From a phage, in sequence record PQ338057.1: a stretch of 64,000 bases of DNA. One strand, given 5' to 3'. Within the stretch, counting starts at the first letter, position 1. Every line of letters begins with the position of its first letter. Position numbers and translations under genes: made by a program. Positions 49,656-61,506 of this stretch are shown piece after piece. Below the pieces are notes generated by a model. The model ran no database searches and was not told where the DNA came from. It worked only from the letters and a program-made list of their open reading frames with translations.

Positions 49656-50680
49656 TGGGAAAGAGTAAGAAAAACCGCGCTGCGGCGACGAACCAGATCC
49701 AGCATAAAAACCAAACTTCAGCCGAAGCATTCAGCTTCGGTGATCCCGTTCCTGTTCTGGACCGCCGCGAATTACTGGACTATGTGGAATGCGTAAAGAT
49801 GGACCGCTGGTATGAGCCACCCGTAAGTTTTGACGGACTGGCGCGAACATTCCGCGCCGCCGTACACCACAGTTCACCGATTGCAGTAAAGTGCAACATT
49901 CTGACCAGCACCTACATCCCTCACCCGCTGCTCAGCCAGCAGGCGTTTTCACGTTTTGTGCAGGACTATCTGGTTTTTGGTAACGCCTACCTGGAGAAAC
50001 GCACGAACCGATTCGGTGAAGTTATCGCCCTTGAGCCTGCGCTGGCAAAATACACCCGACGCGGATTAGACCTAGATACCTACTGGTTTGTGCAATACGG
50101 CATGACCACGCAGCCGTATCAGTTCACGAAAGGCAGCATTTTTCATCTGATGGAACCGGACATCAACCAGGAGATCTACGGCCTGCCCGGCTATCTTTCT
50201 GCCATCCCATCCGCCCTGCTCAACGAGTCCGCCACGCTGTTCCGCCGAAAGTATTACATTAACGGTAGTCATGCAGGCTTCATCATGTACATGACCGATG
50301 CCGCGCAGAACCAGGAAGATGTGAACAACCTCCGCAATGCGATGAAAAGTGCCAAAGGCCCTGGCAACTTCCGCAACCTGTTTATGTACTCGCCTAATGG
50401 TAAAAAAGACGGACTTCAGATTATCCCGTTGTCAGAAGTCACAGCGAAGGATGAGTTTCTGAATATCAAGAACGTGAGCCGTGATGACATGATGGCGGCA
50501 CACCGCGTGCCGCCGCAAATGATGGGAATTATGCCTAATAATGTCGGGGGGTTTGGGGATGTGGAGAAGGCTAGCAAGGTATTCGTAAGAAACGAATTGA
50601 TGCCCCTGCAGAAACGATTGCAGGAACTAAATAACTGGTTGGACGAAGAAGTGCTCAATTTTTCAACCTATGAGCTTTAG
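49652..50680 (+). CDS. Portal protein, P2 gpQ-like
   Basis: 342 aa; overlaps P stop. Confidence 0.9.
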   Translation: MMGKSKKNRAAATNQIQHKNQTSAEAFSFGDPVPVLDRRELLDYVECVKMDRWYEPPVSFDGLARTFRAAVHHSSPIAVKCNILTSTYIPHPLLSQQAFSRFVQDYLVFGNAYLEKRTNRFGEVIALEPALAKYTRRGLDLDTYWFVQYGMTTQPYQFTKGSIFHLMEPDINQEIYGLPGYLSAIPSALLNESATLFRRKYYINGSHAGFIMYMTDAAQNQEDVNNLRNAMKSAKGPGNFRNLFMYSPNGKKDGLQIIPLSEVTAKDEFLNIKNVSRDDMMAAHRVPPQMMGIMPNNVGGFGDVEKASKVFVRNELMPLQKRLQELNNWLDEEVLNFSTYEL

Positions 50681-50688
50681 TTTTAAAA

Positions 50689-50716
50689 CGAAGACCATTA
50701 GGTCTTCGCTTTATTT
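50689..50716. terminator. Hairpin between convergent portal and retron RT genes
   Basis: cgaagacc-atta-ggtcttcg followed by ctttattt. Confidence 0.45.
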
Positions 50717-51660
50717 AAAGGGTTCTTTCCATATTTTTTTTCTAATTTGCTAATATAAGTTATTAATCTCCTATGGCTTTTTGAATCCACACTTAAAATA
50801 AATGACAACCATCCCCTAACGTGTTCTATCTCAGAAGACTTACCGCAAAATATATGATGTATCTTTGCTCTAATTTCTTTATATTTTTCTCTACCTATCC
50901 CAACTTTCTCTTGTGAAATAACTAAACCTGTAACTTTCCTCTGACTACGAGGCCCACTAATACAAGTTTTTTTTGAGTTAATAACCAATCCTTCACTTGG
51001 GATTATAGAAAATAAAAAATCACGTGCTTTAACAACCTTTTTCATAGACTGTGCAGATAAGGTGAGATCATCGGCATATCTCGTATATATCAAGCCCCGA
51101 CTACCTGCATAACCCTGAATACGATAATCAAGTTTAGAACATATTAGATTAGCTAATTTAGGTGATGATGGAGCACCTTGTGGTAGCAGATTTTTATAAC
51201 AACATATTTTTGTCAAAACTGAAGATATTAGTCGATTATAACCAAGAGAATGGAACACTCCAAAAACTTTGTTAGCAGTTAAACTTGGGAAAAAATCCTC
51301 CAAATCAATATTCAGTATAAAGTTTGCCCCAATATGCGGGGTAGCATTATTCAAAATAGATTGGTGCTTTTCAAATCCAATAGAAAAAGGAGATGACGAC
51401 AGTTTATCTAAAATGTTACGTAGAACCCATCCTTGTAAGGCTTTAAGTTCTCGAGAAGGTTGGTAAATGGTTCTCATTCTCTTCTCTGGGCCTTTCTTTT
51501 CTACAGTGTAGATCCTATAGCGAAAATCAGCTGTATAGATTAACAACCGAAGTGTTTCAACAGATATGCGAGTCGCCTTAGACATGTCATGCAAATTGTT
51601 CATGACAGGTAGGCCGAGATTTCTCAATCTAAAAGTGTTCAAATATTCAGCGGATTTCAT
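50698..51660 (-). CDS. ret: Retron-type reverse transcriptase
   Basis: 320 aa; motifs NATPH (NAxxH), YADD, VTG; AT-rich; ncRNA immediately upstream; from memory matches the Ec86/Eco1 RT. Confidence 0.95.
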   Translation of the reverse strand: MKSAEYLNTFRLRNLGLPVMNNLHDMSKATRISVETLRLLIYTADFRYRIYTVEKKGPEKRMRTIYQPSRELKALQGWVLRNILDKLSSSPFSIGFEKHQSILNNATPHIGANFILNIDLEDFFPSLTANKVFGVFHSLGYNRLISSVLTKICCYKNLLPQGAPSSPKLANLICSKLDYRIQGYAGSRGLIYTRYADDLTLSAQSMKKVVKARDFLFSIIPSEGLVINSKKTCISGPRSQRKVTGLVISQEKVGIGREKYKEIRAKIHHIFCGKSSEIEHVRGWLSFILSVDSKSHRRLITYISKLEKKYGKNPLNKAKT

Positions 51661-51666
51661 GAAAGT

Positions 51667-51836
51667 TGCGCACCCTTACGTCAGAAAAAACGGGTTTCCT
51701 GGTTGGCTCGGAGAGCATCAGGCGATGCTCTCCGTTCCAACAAGGAAAACAGACAGTAACTCAGATTCAATGCAGGATGCCGAAACAACATCCAGAGGTT
51801 GACCTTAATGATAAACCTCTCGCTAAGGGTGCGCAT
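51667..51836 (-). ncRNA. msr-msd: Retron msr-msd non-coding RNA
   Basis: 12-nt terminal inverted repeats tgcgcaccctta (51667-51678) and taagggtgcgca (51824-51835); long internal hairpin; ends 7 nt before the RT start. Confidence 0.85.
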
Positions 51837-52746
51837 ACGGAATCTTATCATAGTTAAATGTTGATTTTCTACGGTTTTCAAAATTCATAATCTCAAGCCG
51901 CAATCGGTCAAGTGTCTTTCTATCAAAGACGCTCCTAACATAGCTAGCCCCCAAAGCAGTGACCTGATAACCATCAGTCATTTGAAGTATTTTTCGTTCA
52001 TTTATTAGACGAGAAACAACGGATCTAACAATAATTTTAGATAAAACATCATCTTGCTTTATCGCTTTAAAAGCTAGTTCACACAGTGTGCGGTAGTTGA
52101 CACTATCCAGTAAATAGATACAAGGCAATAGAAACCGCTCTGCGTATAATATATTTCCAATATCTTTTGATACTTTATTTTCTTTCCTAACCTTCTTAAT
52201 AGATGCCATTAATTTTTTATATAATCGTAATTTTCTGGCAACATCAATAGATGAATCACACATTTCTTTTAGTTCATTTGAACTACAACGCAAAACAGAT
52301 TTTGAATTAAACTTACGCAACAGGCGAACAGGACCATAGTTAATAAAGCTACGTTTTGATTTAAATTTTGCATCTTGAATGCAAATCAACTTTCTCCTTA
52401 AGTTTTCATTATTAGAGAACGCACCAAGCTCTGTGAAAGACCCCGGACTTTCAGGAAATAAAATTATTACATCGACAGCTTCAGCCAGAATATTTTCTAA
52501 ACTTAAAAGGCTATGCTGCCCTTGACCAGCCAAAAGATCATCAAATAGATCTTCTGGATAAAATATATCAACATCACTGAACTTTGCTAAAAATTGTGAT
52601 AATTGATGACGCCAAGATTGATGATTAGCAACGTCACCACCACATAGAAAAATGGTTATTTTAATATTAGCTCCTCGATAGAAGCCTTTCTTTGTGAGAT
52701 GTCCTATAAGCTGTTGTTGCTGCTCATCGGTAAATTTTTTATTCAT
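51823..52746 (-). CDS. Retron effector (predicted nucleoside-deoxyribosyltransferase-like N-glycosidase with C-terminal DNA-binding region)
   Basis: 307 aa, AT-rich; first gene of the retron operon with its 3' end overlapping the msr start; Rossmann-like N-terminus KITIFLCGG. Confidence 0.75.
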   Translation of the reverse strand: MNKKFTDEQQQQLIGHLTKKGFYRGANIKITIFLCGGDVANHQSWRHQLSQFLAKFSDVDIFYPEDLFDDLLAGQGQHSLLSLENILAEAVDVIILFPESPGSFTELGAFSNNENLRRKLICIQDAKFKSKRSFINYGPVRLLRKFNSKSVLRCSSNELKEMCDSSIDVARKLRLYKKLMASIKKVRKENKVSKDIGNILYAERFLLPCIYLLDSVNYRTLCELAFKAIKQDDVLSKIIVRSVVSRLINERKILQMTDGYQVTALGASYVRSVFDRKTLDRLRLEIMNFENRRKSTFNYDKIPYAHP

Positions 52747-52821
52747 AATCTCCCCGCTTTTTTTTCTACTTTATACATCAAGTTATGAATAGATCCAATC
52801 TCCATACCACATGGCGCGCGC

Positions 52822-52840
52822 TCGTATCCCCGCCACGCCT
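52822..52840. other. Possible cos (cohesive-end) remnant
   Basis: Reverse strand reads GGCGTGGCGGGGA, matching the first 13 nt of the 186/P2 19-nt cos as I recall it. Confidence 0.3.
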
Positions 52841-53218
52841 GCCCGCTTTATGCAGTGGTTTTCATGCACATGCATAACATGAGCAAAAGCCCGCCAGTTC
52901 TGGCGGATCTGAGCAAAGACGATCCTCAATCGATCATGCGATTTCATGCAGCATAGTCATGCACTGTCAAGGAAGTGAAAATCCGTATCTGAATGGCCAC
53001 TTGAAAAACGGATCATACGGGTTTACAAAGATGAATGTTCGCTGTGAACGGGAAGCGGAAGTTAACTTTCAGATAACATAATCCATATGCACGAGAACCT
53101 CTAAAATAGAATGGGACACCTAAGCGGGGTACTTACAACGATTCTTTCCATATTCACAGTTAACACTCTGTTTGGCGTATTTTTATTCAAATAGCAAACA
53201 CCAATAAAAGGAGTTTCC

Positions 53219-53554
53219 ATGAACAATATTCCCCCTATACCACAGTTAGGAATTTATGTCTCAAAAATCGATCCCACCCTACGTATCACTGTAACCGATG
53301 TTGATATTGTTGATGGTGAGGATGATTCTCCTGATGATGAATTGTTTTATTTAGTCCACTGGATCGAGGGGGAAGATGAAAGTGATATGACAGCAATGGG
53401 ATTTGAGCTAGACCCAGTAGAGTGGCAGGCTTTCGTTGAATCTGAGCAATTAGTGTTTGAGCGTGATCCGTACATGGATTCAATCCCCGAAAATTCAAAC
53501 TTGGCAAAGATTCGGGATTTTCTCATGAAGACTAAACAGAATGATCATTCGTAA
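53219..53554 (+). CDS. Small highly acidic protein of unknown function
   Basis: 111 aa; strong SD aaaaggag; D/E-rich runs DGEDDSPDDE and EGEDESD; accessory locus. Confidence 0.5.
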   Translation: MNNIPPIPQLGIYVSKIDPTLRITVTDVDIVDGEDDSPDDELFYLVHWIEGEDESDMTAMGFELDPVEWQAFVESEQLVFERDPYMDSIPENSNLAKIRDFLMKTKQNDHS

Positions 53555-53746
53555 GTGTAAGCATCCATCAGGAAAATGGTTTTGTAAGTGAATCATCAAC
53601 TTTTAGAGAGTCTCAGACACTCCCACTTCTGCTTCTGACACAAAGCGGACGATCACTTATCAAAATAACCGCCCACCTTACGCCTTATTTCACTCATTGC
53701 CCAAACTAGCCCCCATCAGAATGAATCCTCCTGGGGGCAACATTTC

Positions 53747-53981
53747 TTAATGCAGCCAGCTGTCGTCCTCCCACACCTTCTGCATAATTTTCATCACTTG
53801 TTTTCTTTCTTCATCCAGTTGCAGTCCGGTTAGTTCCACACCGTTAGAGCTACCTTTGCGAATGCGAATTACCGTTTTGGGATACAGGGGGCGCAGATTG
53901 CGGTAAAGCTCGGATTCAAGGGCGTCCAGGGTAGACTGGCTAATCTTCTGCTCTTTATCGATCATTATTTCAATGCGCATA
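53747..53981 (-). CDS. DinI-family protein (Tum C-terminal-domain-like)
   Basis: 78 aa from MRIEIMIDKE; DinI-like pattern ending WEDDSWL; SD gaggtgac; downstream of the SOS box. Confidence 0.7.
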
Positions 53982-53990
53982 AAAGTCACC

Positions 53991-54179
53991 TCAGCTGATG
54001 ACATCCATTGAGCGGTTGTATTCGTGGCTTCTGATTTTTGCCATGAGTTCATCAGTCAATTCAGAAACCCACTGCAGAGCCAGCCCCTTCTCTTCATCAC
54101 TACACTCACTAGCCGCTACAAGCTTAAGAAAAAAATCAATGCGCTGGAGCTTCAAAGACTCCAAAAAATAGTCCTGCAT
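53991..54179 (-). CDS. Small protein, first gene after the SOS box (Tum N-terminal-like?)
   Basis: 62-aa ORF; function unknown. Confidence 0.4.
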   Translation of the reverse strand: MQDYFLESLKLQRIDFFLKLVAASECSDEEKGLALQWVSELTDELMAKIRSHEYNRSMDVIS

Positions 54180-54221
54180 CTTTCCTCCTATGACACCAAA
54201 ACAATACTGTATACATAACCA

Positions 54222-54237
54222 CTGTTTATATTTACAG
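54222..54237. promoter_or_regulatory. LexA (SOS) box
   Basis: ctgtttatatttacag = CTGT-(AT-rich)8-ACAG consensus, about 45 bp upstream of the 54179 start. Confidence 0.6.
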
Positions 54238-54331
54238 TATATAATAATCTTACTGATGTAAAACGTTTTTTTACGTTCATCGGCCTGATATGCCTGGTAT
54301 TATTAAGAGCACGAATTGTCAACCCGCGTAA

Positions 54332-56752
54332 TTAATACAGGTTCCGCCACTTATCATCTTCCTTCAGACGCTGGTTCCGATAGAAGATACGCAGGCCTGC
54401 TCCTGACGGAATACTGCCGCCGCGAAGGAGCAAATCGACTTCTTTCTCGCTGCCATCAAATCCCCTGGACTTCAGTTCATAGACGAGCTGCTGTCGCTGA
54501 TGGTCTGTAATTCGCTGTTTGTAGTCTTTACGCCGTTTCGGTTTCACCTGGCGTAACCTTGCAGCCAGTTCCCGGCGCTCTTTTTTGCTCATACTGTGCA
54601 GGTAATTGTGCAACTCCTTGTCATTCATACGGGTAATATCCGTTCTGGAGTCCCCATCAGCTGATTTGTCTTTCCCTTGTTGGTTCAAATTTTCAGCAAG
54701 GGGACAGTTATTGCCACGAGTCCAAGGGGCGCAAGCGCCCTGGTCGGCTGCCGCCTCCTGAACGTCAACGGCCTTACGAACCATTTTCCACTTCACCGCA
54801 TGAGTGCAGATCTTGCCCTCTGCAATGGGTGACCAGATGCCATAAATACGAATACCGTGATCGCCATATGCGGTCGGTTCTTCGTTGATTTCATAAGCAG
54901 TTCTGATGAGGTGATATTTGCGGGGAACCAGTACGCCGCCCTGCTTCATGATGTAGGTGGCAAAACAACCAGCATCAGCAGCAGCCAGGATTGCATCAAG
55001 ACGCGGGTTATCCAGTACCGGCGCACCTGCTTTTTTGTCACCCTGTTGCCTTGCCGCCTGACCAGCCAGCAATCGCAGTTCACGGTAAGCCTGACGCCCC
55101 GGAATGCCAAAGAAGCGGAATTGCTGAACACGATGCAGAGACGCCCAGGCATTAACGTATTCAGCGTTATCACGCAGGGATTTACCCGTTTCCTTGCTGA
55201 TCTCCCCAGCCAGACCACGCCCGTCAATGTTCTTACTGATGTATTTCGCGATATAGCTTGTTGGCGTACCTTTGCGCGGGTTTATCAGCTCAGACTTAAA
55301 GCGTGGTCCCGTGTTATTGCCCAGCTCCTCGCGGTCTTCACGGATGGCAAACTTACGCAGTAATGCAGTGATGGCGCGGCGGTCTTTTTTACGCATGAAA
55401 CACATGAGATGCCAGTGCACAGTACCGTCATGATGCGGCTCAGCTACCCGCACGCCATACCAGCGCAACTCGGCTTTATGCATAGCCTTACGAAATGCAG
55501 CAAACATGCCGACCAGATAATCGCTACTTTGTCTTACCGTCGCGTTTGTCCAGGTCGGGTTTGGTCTGCCGTTATTGAGCGTGGAATGGAAACGCGACGG
55601 ACAGGTGATAGTGTAGAAAACGGCACAGTCACTGCGCATTTCCGCGATAAGCTCCAGACCTTTAACACAGGCCATCATCTCATTGCGGCGATGCGCCGGG
55701 TTGCTGCTGCTGGCGTTTACCACATCTTCCATATCCAGCGTGTCGCCGTCTTCGTTCACCAGTTCATGAGAACGAAAAAACTCCAGCGACTTACGGCGCT
55801 GCTCACGTTTATGCATCACGGCTTCATAGCTGACATAGGGGGATGCTTTTTTGCTGACCAGGCAGACAGCACGCAACTGCTCTTCCCGCCATTCGCAACG
55901 CATCTTCCATAATTTCCGATACCACCAGTCGGCACACAACATACGCGCCAGCGAACCCGGGATGAGTTCATAGAGCACTGGTTTGCGGCGGTTTATTTTC
56001 CGACGAAGTTTCTCAAACGCAGGCGGGATAACATCCAGACGCAGGGTTTCCGCTGCCACCTTTTCCCATGTCTTGCGGATTTCTTCTGGCTTAACGTCAT
56101 CGGTGGCATACAAATCACCACAAGCGTCCTCAAGACACATGCTCATATGCGCTGCTACCAGGGTGGACAGGCGTTTCACCTGATCCTGGCTCATTTCAGG
56201 CAGGATCAGCAGACCCTCCAGCCCTTGATGGCTTGCCATAAAACGGAAAGAAACAGATAGCTGACTGTCACGTACACAATCCAGTCGCTCCAGACATGGC
56301 TTAATCGTCTCACGCAAATAGCGGGAATAAGCCTTTGGCCTGCCCAGGCTGCTGAAGTATTCAATACGTTGCATCAGCGGCTTGCTGATATGGGAAGGCT
56401 GGGCGTTTACGTCCGCCAGAATGACCATGTCCGGATTAAAACGCTGCTGCTCATGCGCCAGCTTTGCCCGGCTAATGAGCTTATCCTGCTCCATTTCGCG
56501 CTGGACAGGATCACGGGATTCATTAAAGAAATAACGCTCCCAGACCTGCTCACTCAGTGCCTCGCGGCGCAGTTGTTCCTGCTCGTTATCGGCAGCGTAC
56601 AGAGTGATCAGGTTTGAAAGTGCAGACTCCGGCGCAACTTCCGCCGGGTCCAGATAAGGGTTAATGGCCTTTTTCGAGCCGTTCCATGAAAATGCTGCGG
56701 CGGCCTCGTTAAAGCCGCTGCAATAGTTCATATCGTCATGACTCATACACAC
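54332..56752 (-). CDS. Rolling-circle replication initiator (P2 gpA-like HUH endonuclease)
   Basis: 806 aa; HWH motif (TVHWHLM) and paired Tyr (SYIAKYISK). Confidence 0.88.
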
Positions 56753-59520: not shown

Positions 59521-60096
59521 GTGACCATGAATTTGGAGAAAGGCGGACGAGGCGCTATAGAGCGCATGGTAGAAGCTTATGGATTCAAGACTCGACAGGC
59601 GTTGTGCGATCATTTAGGAATCTCTAAAAGTACACTCGCCACACGCTACATGCGTGACTCATTCCCAGCAGAATGGGTAATCCAGTGCGCCCTTGAAACA
59701 GGCACCTCGCTTAATTGGCTCACAACCGGGCATGGTTCAAAGCAAACTTCAGGTAATACAAATACTATGGAAGTTGCTAAATATGTATTATCTGATGGGG
59801 CCTTGTGTGAAGACGGTTTTTATATTTTCGATAGAGAATTTCTACCGTCGGCATTCAAGAATCTTTTTGTAATCACAGATAATAATTCTGAATTTATTTG
59901 TGATAAGGAATTTGATGATATACGTGATGGTAAATGGGTAATAAGTATTGATGGCGAAATAACGATCCGTGACATTACTCGTTTACCCGGTGGAAGAATC
60001 TTCGTCGAGGGTGGAAATAGAGCCTTCGAGTGCAAGATAGAAGATGTTGAAATAATTGGGAAAATTATAAGTTTAACAATTAAGTACGTTAGGTAA
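59521..60096 (+). CDS. Immunity repressor (186 CI-like size and layout)
   Basis: 191 aa; N-terminal HTH TRQALCDHLGISKSTLATRY; upstream of int. Confidence 0.7.
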   Translation: MTMNLEKGGRGAIERMVEAYGFKTRQALCDHLGISKSTLATRYMRDSFPAEWVIQCALETGTSLNWLTTGHGSKQTSGNTNTMEVAKYVLSDGALCEDGFYIFDREFLPSAFKNLFVITDNNSEFICDKEFDDIRDGKWVISIDGEITIRDITRLPGGRIFVEGGNRAFECKIEDVEIIGKIISLTIKYVR

Positions 60097-60111: not shown

Positions 60112-60303
60112 ATGCTTGGTAAGGTATTTTTTGTGGTTTTATCATGCTCTTTGTTATTAAACCCACTAACTACCTATGCTAAAAATTATCCTTGTTCTGG
60201 GAAAAAGGGAGGTGTCTCTCACTGTACCTCCGATGGAAAGTTCGTTTGCAATGATGGAACTATTAGTAAATCAAAAAAAATCTGTACTAAAAACTCGCGA
60301 TAA
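60112..60303 (+). CDS. Small Cys-rich secreted or lipoprotein-like protein
   Basis: 63 aa; signal peptide [23 protein letters not shown]; 5 Cys in mature part; AT-rich. Confidence 0.45.
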
Positions 60304-60489
60304 ATTTTGCTTTTATATCTGCGCCTAATATAACAATGAGCCGCAGGCTAACCGCAAAAGTCACATACTCACATAGCAAAAAATAGCTAACTTCATTATG
60401 GCTTCAGTGAGATGTATGGTCGCAGGATTTCATACATTGACACTGGTTATACATACAGTAAAAATGCTCTCTACTGGAGGGCATTTTTT

Positions 60490-61506
60490 ATGGCAGTACG
60501 AAAACTCACCACAGGAAAATGGCTTTGCGAATGTTACCCCGCCGGACGTAGTGGACGTCGTGTGCGTAAACAATTCGCCACCAAAGGCGAAGCTCTGGCT
60601 TTTGAGCGTCACACGATGGAAGAAACCGAAGCAAAGCCCTGGCTGGGCGAATCAGTGGATCGTCGGACATTGAAAGACGTGATTGAGCTATGGTTCAAAC
60701 TACATGGTAAATCTCTGACAGCTGGGCAGCATGTCTATGACAAACTGCTGTTGATGGTTGACGCTCTGGGCAATCCCCTTGCAACTGATCTAACCTCTAA
60801 AATGTTTGCCCACTATCGAGATAAACGCCTGACAGGTGAGATCTACTTCAGCGAGAAATGGAAGAAAGGAGCAAGCCCGGTCACCATTAACCTGGAGCAA
60901 AGCTATCTAAGTAGTGTTTTTAGCGAACTATCCCGCCTGGGCGAATGGTCGTATCCGAACCCACTGGAGAACATGCGAAAATTCACCATCGCAGAAAAAG
61001 AGATGGCATGGCTTACCCATGAGCAGATTGTTGAACTGCTGGCTGATTGCAAACGTCAGGACCCAATTCTGGCACTGGTAGTCAAGATATGCCTAAGCAC
61101 AGGCGCACGCTGGCGAGAAGCAATAAATCTTACCCGCTCGCAAGTGACCAAATACCGAATTACCTTTGTAAGAACGAAGGGGAAGAAAAACAGAAGCATC
61201 CCTATCAGTAAAGAGCTTTACGAAGAGATCATGGCGCTTGATGGGTTCAATTTCTTTACAGACTGCTATTTTCAATTTTTATCCGTGATGGAAAAAACGT
61301 CTATCGTGCTCCCTCGCGGTCAACTGACACACGTTCTGCGCCATACGTTTGCGGCGCACTTCATGATGTCGGGTGGAAATATCCTTGCTTTGCAAAAAAT
61401 CCTCGGACATCACGATATAAAAATGACTATGCGCTATGCCCATTTAGCACCCGATCATCTTGAGACGGCTCTGAGATTCAACCCCCTCGCAACGCTAGAA
61501 GTGTGA
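60490..61506 (+). CDS. int: Tyrosine integrase (P2/186 Int-like)
   Basis: 338 aa from MAVRKLTTGKW; motifs R...HxxR...Y (LSTGARWREA, HVLRHTFAAH, MRYAHL). Confidence 0.92.
   Translation: MAVRKLTTGKWLCECYPAGRSGRRVRKQFATKGEALAFERHTMEETEAKPWLGESVDRRTLKDVIELWFKLHGKSLTAGQHVYDKLLLMVDALGNPLATDLTSKMFAHYRDKRLTGEIYFSEKWKKGASPVTINLEQSYLSSVFSELSRLGEWSYPNPLENMRKFTIAEKEMAWLTHEQIVELLADCKRQDPILALVVKICLSTGARWREAINLTRSQVTKYRITFVRTKGKKNRSIPISKELYEEIMALDGFNFFTDCYFQFLSVMEKTSIVLPRGQLTHVLRHTFAAHFMMSGGNILALQKILGHHDIKMTMRYAHLAPDHLETALRFNPLATLEV

What the first reader, a model, noticed from the sequence alone, without database searches (positions are those of the whole stretch)
53747..54237. SOS-box-controlled Tum/DinI-like module downstream of replication gene A
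A consensus LexA box (ctgtttatatttacag) lies about 45 bp upstream of a two-ORF minus-strand unit; the second ORF is a clear DinI-family protein. In phage 186 and relatives, a LexA-repressed promoter drives tum, whose product has a DinI-like C-terminal domain and acts as an antirepressor. Here the unit is split into 62-aa and 78-aa ORFs in different frames, either a natural two-gene arrangement or a frameshifted tum. Because the retron is adjacent, DNA damage could also affect transcription through the defence locus.
Basis: partly seen in the sequence, partly recalled or inferred. Interest (0 to 1): 0.45.

Follow-up and report, generated by a model that had tools for sequence, protein, structure and literature searches.

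The report
SOS-controlled tumA/tumB prophage induction switch
This is the DNA-damage switch of a P2/186-like prophage: a LexA-repressed promoter drives a small antirepressor gene (tumA) and a DinI-like gene (tumB), and the same two proteins have already been studied in E. coli HS, so it is real but ordinary.

Summary
A strong LexA box (54220-54239) lies 42 nt upstream of two minus-strand ORFs downstream of gene A. They are 62 aa (54179..53991) and 77 aa, not 78 (53980..53747).

ORF2 is a DinI-family protein. ORF1 is homologous to the N-terminal part of phage 186 Tum by profile comparison, though not by BLASTP.

The split is a natural two-gene arrangement, not a frameshift:
- It matches tumA/tumB of PSP3 and Fels-2.
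- ORF2 has its own ribosome-binding site and ATG.
- Both ORFs are under purifying selection (dN/dS 0.06-0.11).
- The arrangement occurs in about 1,100 complete E. coli genomes.

Both proteins are 100% identical to those of the E. coli HS prophage DuoHS. There, deleting the 62-aa gene, or making LexA non-cleavable, abolishes mitomycin induction (PMC12055606). The finding is therefore already known.

- A second, overlapping LexA box gives a colicin-type double operator.
- A third strong LexA box sits in a promoter-like site just upstream of int.
- The prophage here is defective.
- TumA is nearly invariant across phages whose CI repressors are only 37-62% identical.

SOS read-through into the retron is untested and only weakly suggested.

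The parts
54257..54262 (-). Putative -35 hexamer TTTACA of the tum promoter (the counterpart of 186 p95)
   Evidence: Read from the sequence. It lies 17 nt upstream of TACTGT, the same layout as the annotated p95 of phage 186, which has -35 TTCACA, an 18-nt spacer and -10 TACTGT. This is an inference by analogy. The generic promoter scan did not list it because the -10 is weak.
54234..54239 (-). Putative -10 hexamer TACTGT, which is also the first six bases of LexA box 1
   Evidence: In 186 the annotated -10 of p95 is likewise the first six bases of the LexA site.
54220..54239 (-).
   Evidence: pattern match; 23.9 bits, top site in the window; none this strong in 100 simulations. A box of 17-29 bits lies upstream of tumA/tum in all 16 related phages examined. 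The sequence is identical in E. coli HS.
54205..54224 (-). LexA box 2 (CAGTGGTTATGTATACAGTA), offset 15 nt from box 1 so that the two 16-mers share one base pair; together they form a colicin-type double SOS operator
   Evidence: 15.9 bits; 0.07 sites this strong expected per 64 kb. The composite has the same architecture as the ColE1 operator CTGTATATAAAACCAGTGGTTATATGTACAG, whose second box scores 15.2 bits with the same matrix. A second box of at least 13 bits is present in Fels-2, RE2010, Cartapus, Kp4860-7, ST15phi14.1, ST437phi4.1 and HS. It is absent from 186, PSP3, the Yersinia phage and the ESSI phages.
54184..54189 (-). Shine-Dalgarno sequence AGGAGG of tumA
   Evidence: Read from the sequence; it ends 4 nt before the ATG at 54179.
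53991..54179 (-). tumA: 62-aa antirepressor gene, including its stop codon
   Evidence: One search lists the ORF. A family profile against 186 Tum gives hhalign probability 94.9%, E 4.5e-8, aligning residues 3-44 of each. The protein is 100% identical to ECHS_RS04495 / WP_001154431.1 of E. coli HS, the gene deleted as 'tum' in PMC12055606. dN/dS is 0.06 against SEN8 and ST437phi4.1. PHROGs places it in phrog_698, function unknown.
53987..53992 (-). Shine-Dalgarno sequence GAGGTG of tumB, overlapping the tumA stop codon TGA (53993..53991)
   Evidence: Read from the sequence. Other lineages also have a stop codon, an SD and an ATG at this junction, but with different sequences.
53747..53980 (-). 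tumB: 77-aa DinI-family gene, including its stop codon
   Evidence: Pfam DinI 6.6e-23. It is 41% identical to 186 Tum residues 71-145, 78% to PSP3 TumB and 100% to the Fels-2 protein. It matches solved DinI 1GHH at E 2.7e-6. dN/dS is 0.07-0.11.
53709..53738 (-). Weak hairpin after tumB (GCCCCCAG...CUGAUGGGGGC followed by UAGUUUGGG); at most a leaky terminator
   Evidence: -18.9 kcal/mol, z -1.35, poor U tract. Homology with relatives ends at 53737-53749, so the strong terminator seen about 55 nt after tumB in DuoHS (L020 25106-25132) is not present here.
59527..60096 (+). cI: 186-type immunity repressor, the inferred target of TumA
   Evidence: Pfam Phage_CI_repr 2.8e-33 and Phage_CI_C 8.5e-27. 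It is 32% identical to 186 CI and differs from E. coli HS DuoHS CI at 3 of 189 residues.
60437..60465 (+). Promoter-like site TTGACA-17-AAAAAT containing a third strong LexA box (60441-60460, CACTGGTTATACATACAGTA), 25-50 nt upstream of the int ATG at 60490
   Evidence: 23.8 bits; best promoter-like match in the region, 10 of 12. The box sequence is identical in E. coli HS. The region is found in 957 E. coli genomes. Its function is inferred, not shown.

Best explanation
This is the SOS induction module of a Fels-2/186-like (P2 family) prophage.

In undamaged cells LexA occupies a double operator. Box 1 overlaps the -10 of the promoter and box 2 covers the start of the transcript, so the tumA-tumB operon is silent. 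DNA damage activates RecA, LexA cleaves itself, and the operon is transcribed.

TumA (62 aa) is the antirepressor. It corresponds to the N-terminal part of the 146-aa Tum of phage 186. It inactivates the prophage's 186-type CI repressor without cleaving it, which opens the early lytic promoter (apl, cII, fil, dam, A).

TumB (77 aa) is a DinI homologue translated from its own ribosome-binding site. It most likely modulates RecA filament activity, and so the strength or duration of the SOS signal. It is not itself the antirepressor.

What is shown and what is inferred:
- Shown here: the sequence features, the homologies, their conservation, and identity to the E. coli HS genes.
- Shown elsewhere on identical proteins: induction needs the 62-aa gene and cleavable LexA.
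- Inferred: direct TumA-CI binding in this phage type (by analogy with 186), the role of TumB, cooperative LexA binding to the double box, and the exact promoter hexamers.

The prophage in this window has lost its capsid, sheath, tube and tape-measure genes. Firing the switch here could derepress early genes, and perhaps excision and replication, but could not yield virions.
For: LexA sites:
- Box 1 scores 23.9 bits and box 2 scores 15.9 bits. They rank first and third in the 64-kb window, with 0.07 sites at or above 15.9 bits expected by chance.
- A box is present upstream of the homologous gene in all 16 related phages.
- The layout matches the annotated p95/LexA site of 186.
- The double box has the ColE1 architecture.

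Genes:
- ORF2 is Pfam DinI at 6.6e-23, 41% identical to Tum 71-145 and matches 1GHH.
- The ORF1 family profile matches 186 Tum 3-44 at probability 94.9%, E 4.5e-8.
- The PSP3 record annotates the same arrangement as tumA ('similar to 5' end 186 tum; UV induction of prophage') and tumB.
- PMC3121763 states that Fels-2 and PSP3 have tum split by a stop codon, and that in PSP3 the upstream gene carries the antirepressor activity.

Evidence that the split is natural:
- tumB has its own SD and ATG aligned to Met1 of DinI.
- dN/dS is 0.06-0.11 for both ORFs at dS of about 1-1.4.
- The junction sequence differs between lineages but is always stop, SD, ATG.
- None of the 67 representatives at 50% identity is a fusion of about 140 aa.
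- The arrangement is annotated as two genes in the E. coli records listed, and the region matches 1,125 of 5,426 complete genomes.

Target: a 186-type CI is present in the same prophage.

Genetics: TumA and TumB are 100% identical to E. coli HS ECHS_RS04495 and ECHS_RS04500, and CI differs at 3 of 189 residues. PMC12055606 deleted ECHS_RS04495 as 'tum' and found that the deletion mutant and lexA(Ind-) cells no longer lyse or form virions after mitomycin C.
Against: - BLASTP finds no similarity between ORF1 and 186 Tum, and the profile match to PSP3 TumA is weak (P 0.0039, probability 8.6%). Homology of the antirepressor part rests on one profile comparison plus synteny.
- No experiment on this strain is available.
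- Direct TumA-CI binding has been shown biochemically only for 186 Tum (cited in PMC3121763).
- TumA does not co-vary with CI across phages. That is unexpected for a specific antirepressor and needs the extra assumption that it recognises the conserved N-terminal domain of CI.
- The prophage is defective, so the module may have no present-day phenotype.
- My LexA matrix was built from sites recalled from memory. The ColE1 operator used as a positive control scored as expected.
Confidence: 0.9

Rival explanations
1. The two ORFs are the halves of a single 186-type tum gene broken by a frameshift or nonsense mutation, so the locus is a pseudogene.
For: The lengths, 62 + 77 aa, roughly add up to the 146 aa of 186 Tum. 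The ORFs are in different frames. The prophage is defective elsewhere.
Against: - The same split is found in viable, inducible phages: DuoHS of E. coli HS, Fels-2, PSP3, RE2010 and many Klebsiella phages.
- Both ORFs have dN/dS of 0.06-0.11 at saturating synonymous divergence.
- tumB has its own SD and an ATG that aligns with Met1 of DinI.
- Lineages differ in the junction sequence but all keep stop, SD and ATG.
- No fused representative exists in this protein family.
- The 62-aa gene alone is required for induction in HS.
Confidence: 0.02
2. The DinI-like TumB is the effector of induction, for example by acting on RecA or CI, and ORF1 is an unrelated small leader ORF.
For: TumB is the only part with a database-recognised domain. 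PGAP annotates ORF1 only as 'hypothetical protein' and PHROGs gives its family no known function. One Klebsiella phage record calls it 'levan regulatory domain protein'.
Against: - The gene deleted in E. coli HS to abolish induction is the 62-aa ORF, ECHS_RS04495.
- PMC3121763 reports that the upstream gene of PSP3 carries the antirepressor activity.
- Related phages (Yersinia vB_YenM_06.16-2, ESSI-2, ESSI2_ev129) have a LexA box and a tumA homologue but no DinI gene.
- The ORF1 profile matches the N-terminal part of Tum.
- A polar effect of the HS deletion on tumB cannot be excluded from the text I read.
Confidence: 0.04
3. In this defective prophage the module no longer serves phage induction. 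Instead it acts as an SOS-responsive promoter at the head of the gpA-gpQ cargo hotspot, driving or interfering with transcription of the adjacent 111-aa ORF and the retron after DNA damage.
For: - In 186 the SOS operon reads through a partial terminator into orf97, a gene whose expression blocks 186 infection.
- The retron effector and RT are co-oriented with tumAB.
- The strong terminator that follows tumB in DuoHS is missing here, and only a weak hairpin remains.
- The two hotspot papers I checked do not discuss tum, SOS or LexA.
Against: - A convergent 111-aa ORF lies between tumB and the retron.
- A terminator-like hairpin on the minus strand (52907..52890) precedes the effector gene.
- No expression data are available.
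- The cI, apl, cII and A genes are intact and CI is near-identical to that of a working phage, so the classical role is still available.
Confidence: 0.2

Closest known systems
tum of the E. coli HS P2-like prophage DuoHS (ECHS_RS04495) with its DinI-like neighbour ECHS_RS04500 (PMC12055606)
   Same: TumA and TumB are 100% identical in protein sequence. LexA box 1 is identical. The integration site next to rcdA is the same. The Apl-like protein is identical (same WP accession), and CI differs at 3 of 189 residues. The LexA box upstream of int is identical.
   Different: DuoHS is a complete, inducible phage, whereas the prophage here has lost head and tail genes. Box 2 differs at 2 bases. The cargo after tumB differs: two unrelated genes preceded by a strong terminator in HS, against a convergent 111-aa ORF plus a retron here.
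tumA/tumB of Salmonella phages PSP3 and Fels-2
   Same: The arrangement is the same two genes downstream of gene A behind a LexA box. Fels-2 is 97% (TumA) and 100% (TumB) identical and has the same double LexA box. The PSP3 record names the genes tumA and tumB.
   Different: PSP3 TumA is only 22% identical and PSP3 has a single LexA box. Fels-2 CI is only about 42% identical to the CI here.
Tum and the SOS operon (p95-tum-orf97) of coliphage 186
   Same: The position after gene A is the same, and the LexA site overlaps a TACTGT -10 in both. The N-terminal part is homologous by profile and the C-terminal part is DinI-like. The target is a 186-type CI. 186 also makes the DinI-like part separately from an internal GTG start.
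   Different: 186 encodes one 146-aa polypeptide with an in-frame linker, has one LexA box, and its CI is only 32% identical. BLASTP detects no similarity between TumA and the Tum N-terminal half.
Double overlapping SOS boxes of colicin operons (ColE1 cea)
   Same: Two LexA 16-mers share one base pair. The 31-nt composite in Fels-2 matches ColE1 at 28 of 31 positions by my hand count on the sequences, and the window version is close to it. The matrix scores are similar: 22.2 + 15.2 bits for ColE1 against 23.9 + 15.9 bits here.
   Different: The downstream genes are different. Cooperative LexA binding and delayed induction are known for colicins from my memory of the literature, and are only inferred here.
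LexA-controlled dinI-antirepressor operons of Gifsy prophages (PMC3121763)
   Same: A LexA box controls an operon that pairs a DinI homologue with a small antirepressor that inactivates a non-cleavable repressor.
   Different: The gene order is reversed (dinI first). The antirepressors and repressors are unrelated in sequence, and the phages are lambdoid.

Membership tests
Phage 186-type Tum / SOS induction module | A LexA operator overlapping the promoter, located downstream of replication gene A | tested here: met
   The layout matches the annotated p95 of 186.
Phage 186-type Tum / SOS induction module | An antirepressor segment homologous to the N-terminal part of Tum | tested here: met
   hhalign of a 28-sequence family profile against 186 Tum gives probability 94.9%, E 4.5e-8, residues 3-44. 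Pairwise BLASTP was negative, so the relation is remote.
Phage 186-type Tum / SOS induction module | A DinI-like C-terminal segment | tested here: met
   Pfam DinI 6.6e-23; 41% identity to Tum 71-145.
Phage 186-type Tum / SOS induction module | Both segments in one polypeptide of about 146 aa | tested here: not met
   There are two ORFs in different frames with a stop codon, an SD and an ATG between them. The locus is therefore the split tumA/tumB variant, not 186-type tum proper.
Phage 186-type Tum / SOS induction module | A cognate non-cleavable 186-type CI repressor in the same element | tested here: met
   Phage_CI_repr and Phage_CI_C domains are present, with 32% identity to 186 CI. Non-cleavability itself was not tested.
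Phage 186-type Tum / SOS induction module | Antirepressor activity and SOS-dependent prophage induction | not testable with these tools
   Published genetics on identical proteins in E. coli HS show that the tum deletion and lexA(Ind-) both block induction (PMC12055606).
Split tumA/tumB module (PSP3, Fels-2) | An upstream gene of about 60 aa and a downstream DinI-like gene of 77 aa, each with its own start codon, behind one LexA-controlled promoter | tested here: met
   TumA is 97% and TumB 100% identical to the Fels-2 proteins.
DinI family (Pfam PF06183) | A profile match above the curated cut-off over the whole domain | tested here: met
   81.3 bits against a cut-off of 24.2, profile positions 1-63 of 63. 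It also matches solved DinI 1GHH.
DinI family (Pfam PF06183) | Binding to RecA filaments | not testable with these tools
The role is inferred from family membership.
Colicin-type double SOS operator | Two LexA boxes whose 16-mers overlap by one base pair | tested here: met
   Boxes at 54220-54239 and 54205-54224 are offset by 15 nt. The ColE1 operator has the same composite.
Colicin-type double SOS operator | Cooperative binding of two LexA dimers and delayed induction | not testable with these tools
   This needs a footprint or gel-shift assay and induction kinetics.

The most novel reading that the evidence does not exclude
TumA of the Fels-2/DuoHS clade may be a broad-spectrum antirepressor.

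The same protein (97-100% identical) is paired with at least seven CI types that are only 37-62% identical to one another. Those CI types nevertheless keep a conserved N-terminal DNA-binding domain (68% mean pairwise identity, with near-invariant stretches such as SKST and FPA(E/D)W(V/I)IQC, the last residue differing in one type, followed by LETG). TumA would then bind that domain, and one prophage's TumA could cross-induce other prophages of this clade that carry a different CI type.

Together with a colicin-type double LexA operator and a separate LexA-boxed promoter in front of int, this would make SOS control of this phage group more elaborate than the 186 model. The promoter also sits at the head of the gpA-gpQ defence hotspot and might couple some cargo to DNA damage.
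Probability: 0.4. Interest if true: 0.4.

Novelty: already known. Interest (0 to 1): 0.15.

Why it matters
For this window the result is mainly an annotation fix. The 62-aa 'hypothetical protein' (PHROGs phrog_698, function unknown) is the Tum antirepressor of Fels-2/DuoHS-type prophages, which are found in about a fifth of complete E. coli genomes. The DinI-like gene next to it is its partner, not the switch itself. This explains how such prophages respond to DNA-damaging agents.

In this strain the prophage is defective. SOS induction could therefore derepress early genes (fil, dam, the nickase A) and possibly int without producing phage. That could affect survival after DNA damage and the stability of the retron-carrying element.

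Three side observations are small but testable extensions of the 186 paradigm: the double operator, the LexA box in front of int, and an invariant TumA set against diverse CI repressors.

Tried and rejected
- **Pairwise comparison of ORF1 with 186 Tum.** BLASTP found no alignment. A family profile was needed. The profile match to PSP3 TumA stayed weak.
- **Frameshifted pseudogene.** Rejected; see the rival explanations.
- **Junction hairpin.** A hairpin spans the tumA stop codon and the tumB SD (54002..53985, flagged). I considered it as an attenuator or coupling device. It folds no better than shuffles (z -1.19) and is not conserved in SEN8, ST437phi4.1 or PSP3, so I dropped it.
- **Strong intrinsic terminator after tumB.** The hairpin at 53709-53738 is not significant (z -1.35) and lacks a U tract.
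- **Rfam scan of 50000-55000.** No family matched at E up to 0.1. The retron msr-msd was recognised only from my memory of the Ec86 sequence.
- **Solved structure for TumA.** None at E up to 1.
- **Literature.** Bunny et al. 2002 on Fels-2 and lexA is not held, so I could not check whether the double LexA box was already described. A whole-word search for tumA/tumB returned only unrelated papers.
- **Expected co-variation of TumA with CI.** It was not found. I recorded this as an observation rather than explaining it away.
Full report
**What is in the sequence**

On the minus strand, gene A ends at 54332. It is an 806-aa ORF matching Pfam Phage_GPA at 9.5e-127. The features that follow it, read, are:
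- a putative -35 hexamer TTTACA (54262..54257) and a 17-nt spacer;
- TACTGT (54239..54234), which is both a putative -10 and the start of a LexA 20-mer, TACTGTAAATATAAACAGTG (54239..54220);
- a second LexA-like 20-mer, CAGTGGTTATGTATACAGTA (54224..54205);
- an AGGAGG ribosome-binding site (54189..54184);
- ORF1, 62 aa, ATG at 54179 and TGA at 53993..53991;
- GAGGTG overlapping that stop codon;
- ORF2, 77 aa, ATG at 53980 and stop codon ending at 53747.

I built a weight matrix from 27 E. coli LexA sites recalled from the literature. It ranks box 1 first in the whole window (23.9 bits) and box 2 third (15.9 bits). In 100 Markov simulations of 64 kb, the mean number of sites at or above 15.9 bits was 0.07, and none reached 23.8 bits. 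The only corrections are that ORF2 is 77 aa rather than 78, and that there are two overlapping boxes rather than one.

**What the two ORFs are**

ORF2 is a DinI-family protein:
- It matches Pfam PF06183 at 6.6e-23 over the whole profile.
- It matches solved DinI 1GHH at E 2.7e-6.
- It is 41% identical to residues 71-145 of phage 186 Tum, 78% to PSP3 TumB and 100% to the Fels-2 DinI-like protein.

ORF1 has no Pfam domain, and BLASTP finds no similarity to 186 Tum. An exhaustive HMMER search of 1.84 billion representatives found 67 relatives. Nearly all are stand-alone proteins of about 50-100 aa, and none is a fusion of about 140 aa with a DinI domain. A profile of 28 diverse members aligns with residues 3-44 of 186 Tum at hhalign probability 94.9%, E 4.5e-8. 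ORF1 is thus a remote homologue of the N-terminal, non-DinI part of Tum. The match to PSP3 TumA is weak.

**Frameshift or natural two-gene unit**

The split is natural, for these reasons:
- The PSP3 record annotates the same arrangement as tumA ('similar to 5' end 186 tum; UV induction of prophage') and tumB. Fels-2 has it too.
- Lemire et al. [quoted passage not shown]
- tumB has its own SD and an ATG that aligns with Met1 of DinI.
- Against relatives with dS of about 1-1.4 (SEN8, ST437phi4.1), both ORFs have dN/dS of 0.06-0.11.
- The junction differs between lineages (TGA-GAGGTG-ATG here and in Fels-2; TAA followed by AAGGAA in SEN8 or GGGGAA in ST437phi4.1, then ATG; TAG-ATT-ATG in PSP3), but it is always stop, SD and start.
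- The region matches 1,125 of 5,426 complete E. coli genomes. The listed records annotate two genes there.
- 186 itself makes the DinI-like part separately from an internal GTG start preceded by AAGGAGG. The fused 186 gene therefore looks like the variant rather than the rule.

**Direct experimental link**

The window is 100% identical over this region to an E. coli chromosome. In that record PGAP calls ORF1 WP_001154431.1 and ORF2 WP_001217575.1. The same two accessions are ECHS_RS04495 and ECHS_RS04500 in E. coli HS, in a P2-like prophage at the same site next to rcdA. I confirmed the following:
- Both proteins are 100% identical between the two strains.
- The DNA is 97% identical.
- LexA box 1 is identical.
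- CI differs at 3 of 189 residues.

It has been tested genetically on identical proteins with a near-identical repressor.

**Mechanism**

The steps are as follows.
1. LexA represses the promoter. This is inferred from the sequence and supported by the lexA(Ind-) phenotype in HS.
2. DNA damage leads to LexA cleavage and expression of tumAB.
3. TumA inactivates CI, which is a 186-type repressor here (Phage_CI_repr and Phage_CI_C domains, 32% identical to 186 CI). This is by analogy with 186 Tum, which binds CI and prevents operator binding (Shearwin et al. 1998, as cited in PMC3121763).
4. TumB, like DinI, probably modulates RecA filaments. The 186 record notes that the truncated DinI-like Tum products 'modulate SOS induction'.

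**The double operator**

The double LexA box is the colicin-type composite. ColE1 carries CTGTATATAAAACCAGTGGTTATATGTACAG. With my matrix its two boxes score 22.2 and 15.2 bits at the same 15-nt offset. Fels-2 has the identical second box.

A second box of at least 13 bits is present in seven members of this clade. It is absent from 186, PSP3, the Yersinia phage and the ESSI phages. By analogy with colicins (from memory), it would tighten repression and delay firing until damage is sustained. That is an inference.

**Context in this window**

The prophage spans roughly 38000-61700, between ybjL and rcdA. It is defective:
- The scaffold gene is truncated and runs into a partial lysozyme gene. 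The capsid, small terminase and holin genes are missing.
- The stretch from the tail-fibre region to a partial gpD is also lost, which removes the sheath, tube and tape-measure genes (compare with the intact DuoHS).
- The regulatory and replication genes (int, cI, the apl-like gene, cII, fil, dam, A, tumAB) are intact.

Firing the switch here can derepress early genes but cannot yield virions.

**The retron suggestion**

Homology with relatives stops at the tumB stop codon (53737-53749). Beyond it lies the gpA-gpQ cargo hotspot described by Rousset et al. 2022 (PMC9122126), which includes retrons. In this window the cargo is a convergent 111-aa ORF (phrog_17127, function unknown) followed by a type II-A retron with an NDT effector and an RT.

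DuoHS has a strong terminator about 55 nt after tumB. The window has only a weak hairpin there. A terminator-like hairpin at 52907..52890 precedes the effector gene.

In 186 the SOS transcript passes a partial terminator into orf97, whose expression blocks 186 infection, so there is a precedent. For this locus, however, SOS read-through into the retron is untested. I give it about 0.2. The two hotspot papers I checked mention neither tum, SOS nor LexA.

**Things found on the way**

- **A third LexA box.** A strong box (60441-60460, 23.8 bits) lies inside the best promoter-like site of its region, TTGACA-17-AAAAAT at 60437-60465. It is 30 nt upstream of the int ATG. The sequence is identical in the functional DuoHS prophage, and the region is found in 957 E. 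coli genomes. A LexA-controlled int promoter would supply integrase for excision on induction. I have not seen this described, but could not search for it thoroughly.
- **TumA does not co-vary with CI.** Across the window, Fels-2, Kp4860-7, Kp4845-2, 813R9, Cartapus/RE2010 and ST15phi14.1, TumA is 97-100% identical while the CI proteins are 37-62% identical to one another. The Apl gene is often unrelated. Within these CI proteins the N-terminal DNA-binding domain is 68% identical on average and the C-terminal domain 36%. Fels-2 makes a lexA null lethal in Salmonella, according to the title of Bunny et al. 2002 in the reference list of PMC3121763. DuoHS has been shown to be LexA-controlled. Their CI proteins are 42% identical, and both carry essentially the same TumA. 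This suggests that TumA recognises the conserved N-terminal domain and could act across CI types.

**Verdict**

The feature is real and correctly interpreted. It is an already-known kind of module whose exact proteins have been studied. The interest of the finding as stated is low. The side observations are modest leads.

Noticed in passing
window 60437-60465 (LexA box 60441-60460), upstream of int (ATG at 60490): A third strong LexA box (CACTGGTTATACATACAGTA, 23.8 bits) sits in the spacer of a promoter-like site, TTGACA-17-AAAAAT, just before the integrase gene. The sequence is identical in the inducible E. coli HS prophage, and the region is found in 957 E. coli genomes. ESSI2_ev129 also has a 25.7-bit box between cI and int (L016 position 8774). 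This suggests SOS-controlled int expression.
   Followed up: partly
window 53991-54179 (tumA) and 59527-60096 (cI); loci L006-L019: TumA is 97-100% identical across phages whose CI repressors are only 37-62% identical to one another, giving at least seven CI types. The CI N-terminal domain is conserved (68% mean pairwise identity) and the C-terminal domain is not (36%). The antirepressor therefore does not co-vary with the repressor.
   Followed up: partly
window about 38000-61700: The P2/186-like prophage is defective. One deletion runs from within the scaffold gene to within the lysozyme gene and removes the capsid, small terminase and holin genes. A second runs from the tail-fibre/invertase region to within gpD and removes the sheath, tube and tape-measure genes. 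This is seen by comparing with the intact DuoHS prophage.
   Followed up: partly
window 50698-52746 (minus strand): This is a type II-A retron: an NDT-like effector (51823..52746) and an RT (50698..51660), confirmed against PADLOC. From memory, the RT sequence is that of retron Ec86, and the msr-msd lies at about 51670-51836, overlapping the end of the effector gene. Rfam found no match there.
   Followed up: partly
window 53219-53554 (plus strand): A 111-aa acidic ORF lies convergent to tumB, between the tum module and the retron. It matches phrog_17127 (function unknown) at 2e-70, with no Pfam or PADLOC hit. Any read-through from the tum promoter would be antisense to it.
   Followed up: no
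window 60112-60303 (plus strand): A 63-aa ORF with a hydrophobic N-terminus lies between cI and int (phrog_6000, function unknown). At the corresponding place some E. coli records annotate a 'YdcA family protein'. It looks like a small secreted cargo protein.
   Followed up: no
L009 (Escherichia phage 500465-1) 4483-4668: The tumA homologue has an internal patch (EERGWLCSGVSEL in place of EEKGLALQWVSEL). This looks like a pair of compensating frameshifts and gives dN/dS of 0.71 against the window.
   Followed up: no
L016, L017, L018 (ESSI2_ev129, Cronobacter ESSI-2, Yersinia vB_YenM_06.16-2): These P2-like phages have a LexA box and a tumA homologue but no detectable DinI-like gene after it. 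The DinI partner is therefore dispensable for the module as such.
   Followed up: partly
L020 25106-25132 (E. coli HS): A strong intrinsic-terminator-like hairpin (11 pairs followed by GTTTTTTGTC) follows tumB in DuoHS. I read the corresponding sequence in Fels-2 as well. It is the counterpart of 186 t95a and is absent from the window because the cargo junction lies immediately after the tumB stop codon.
   Followed up: partly
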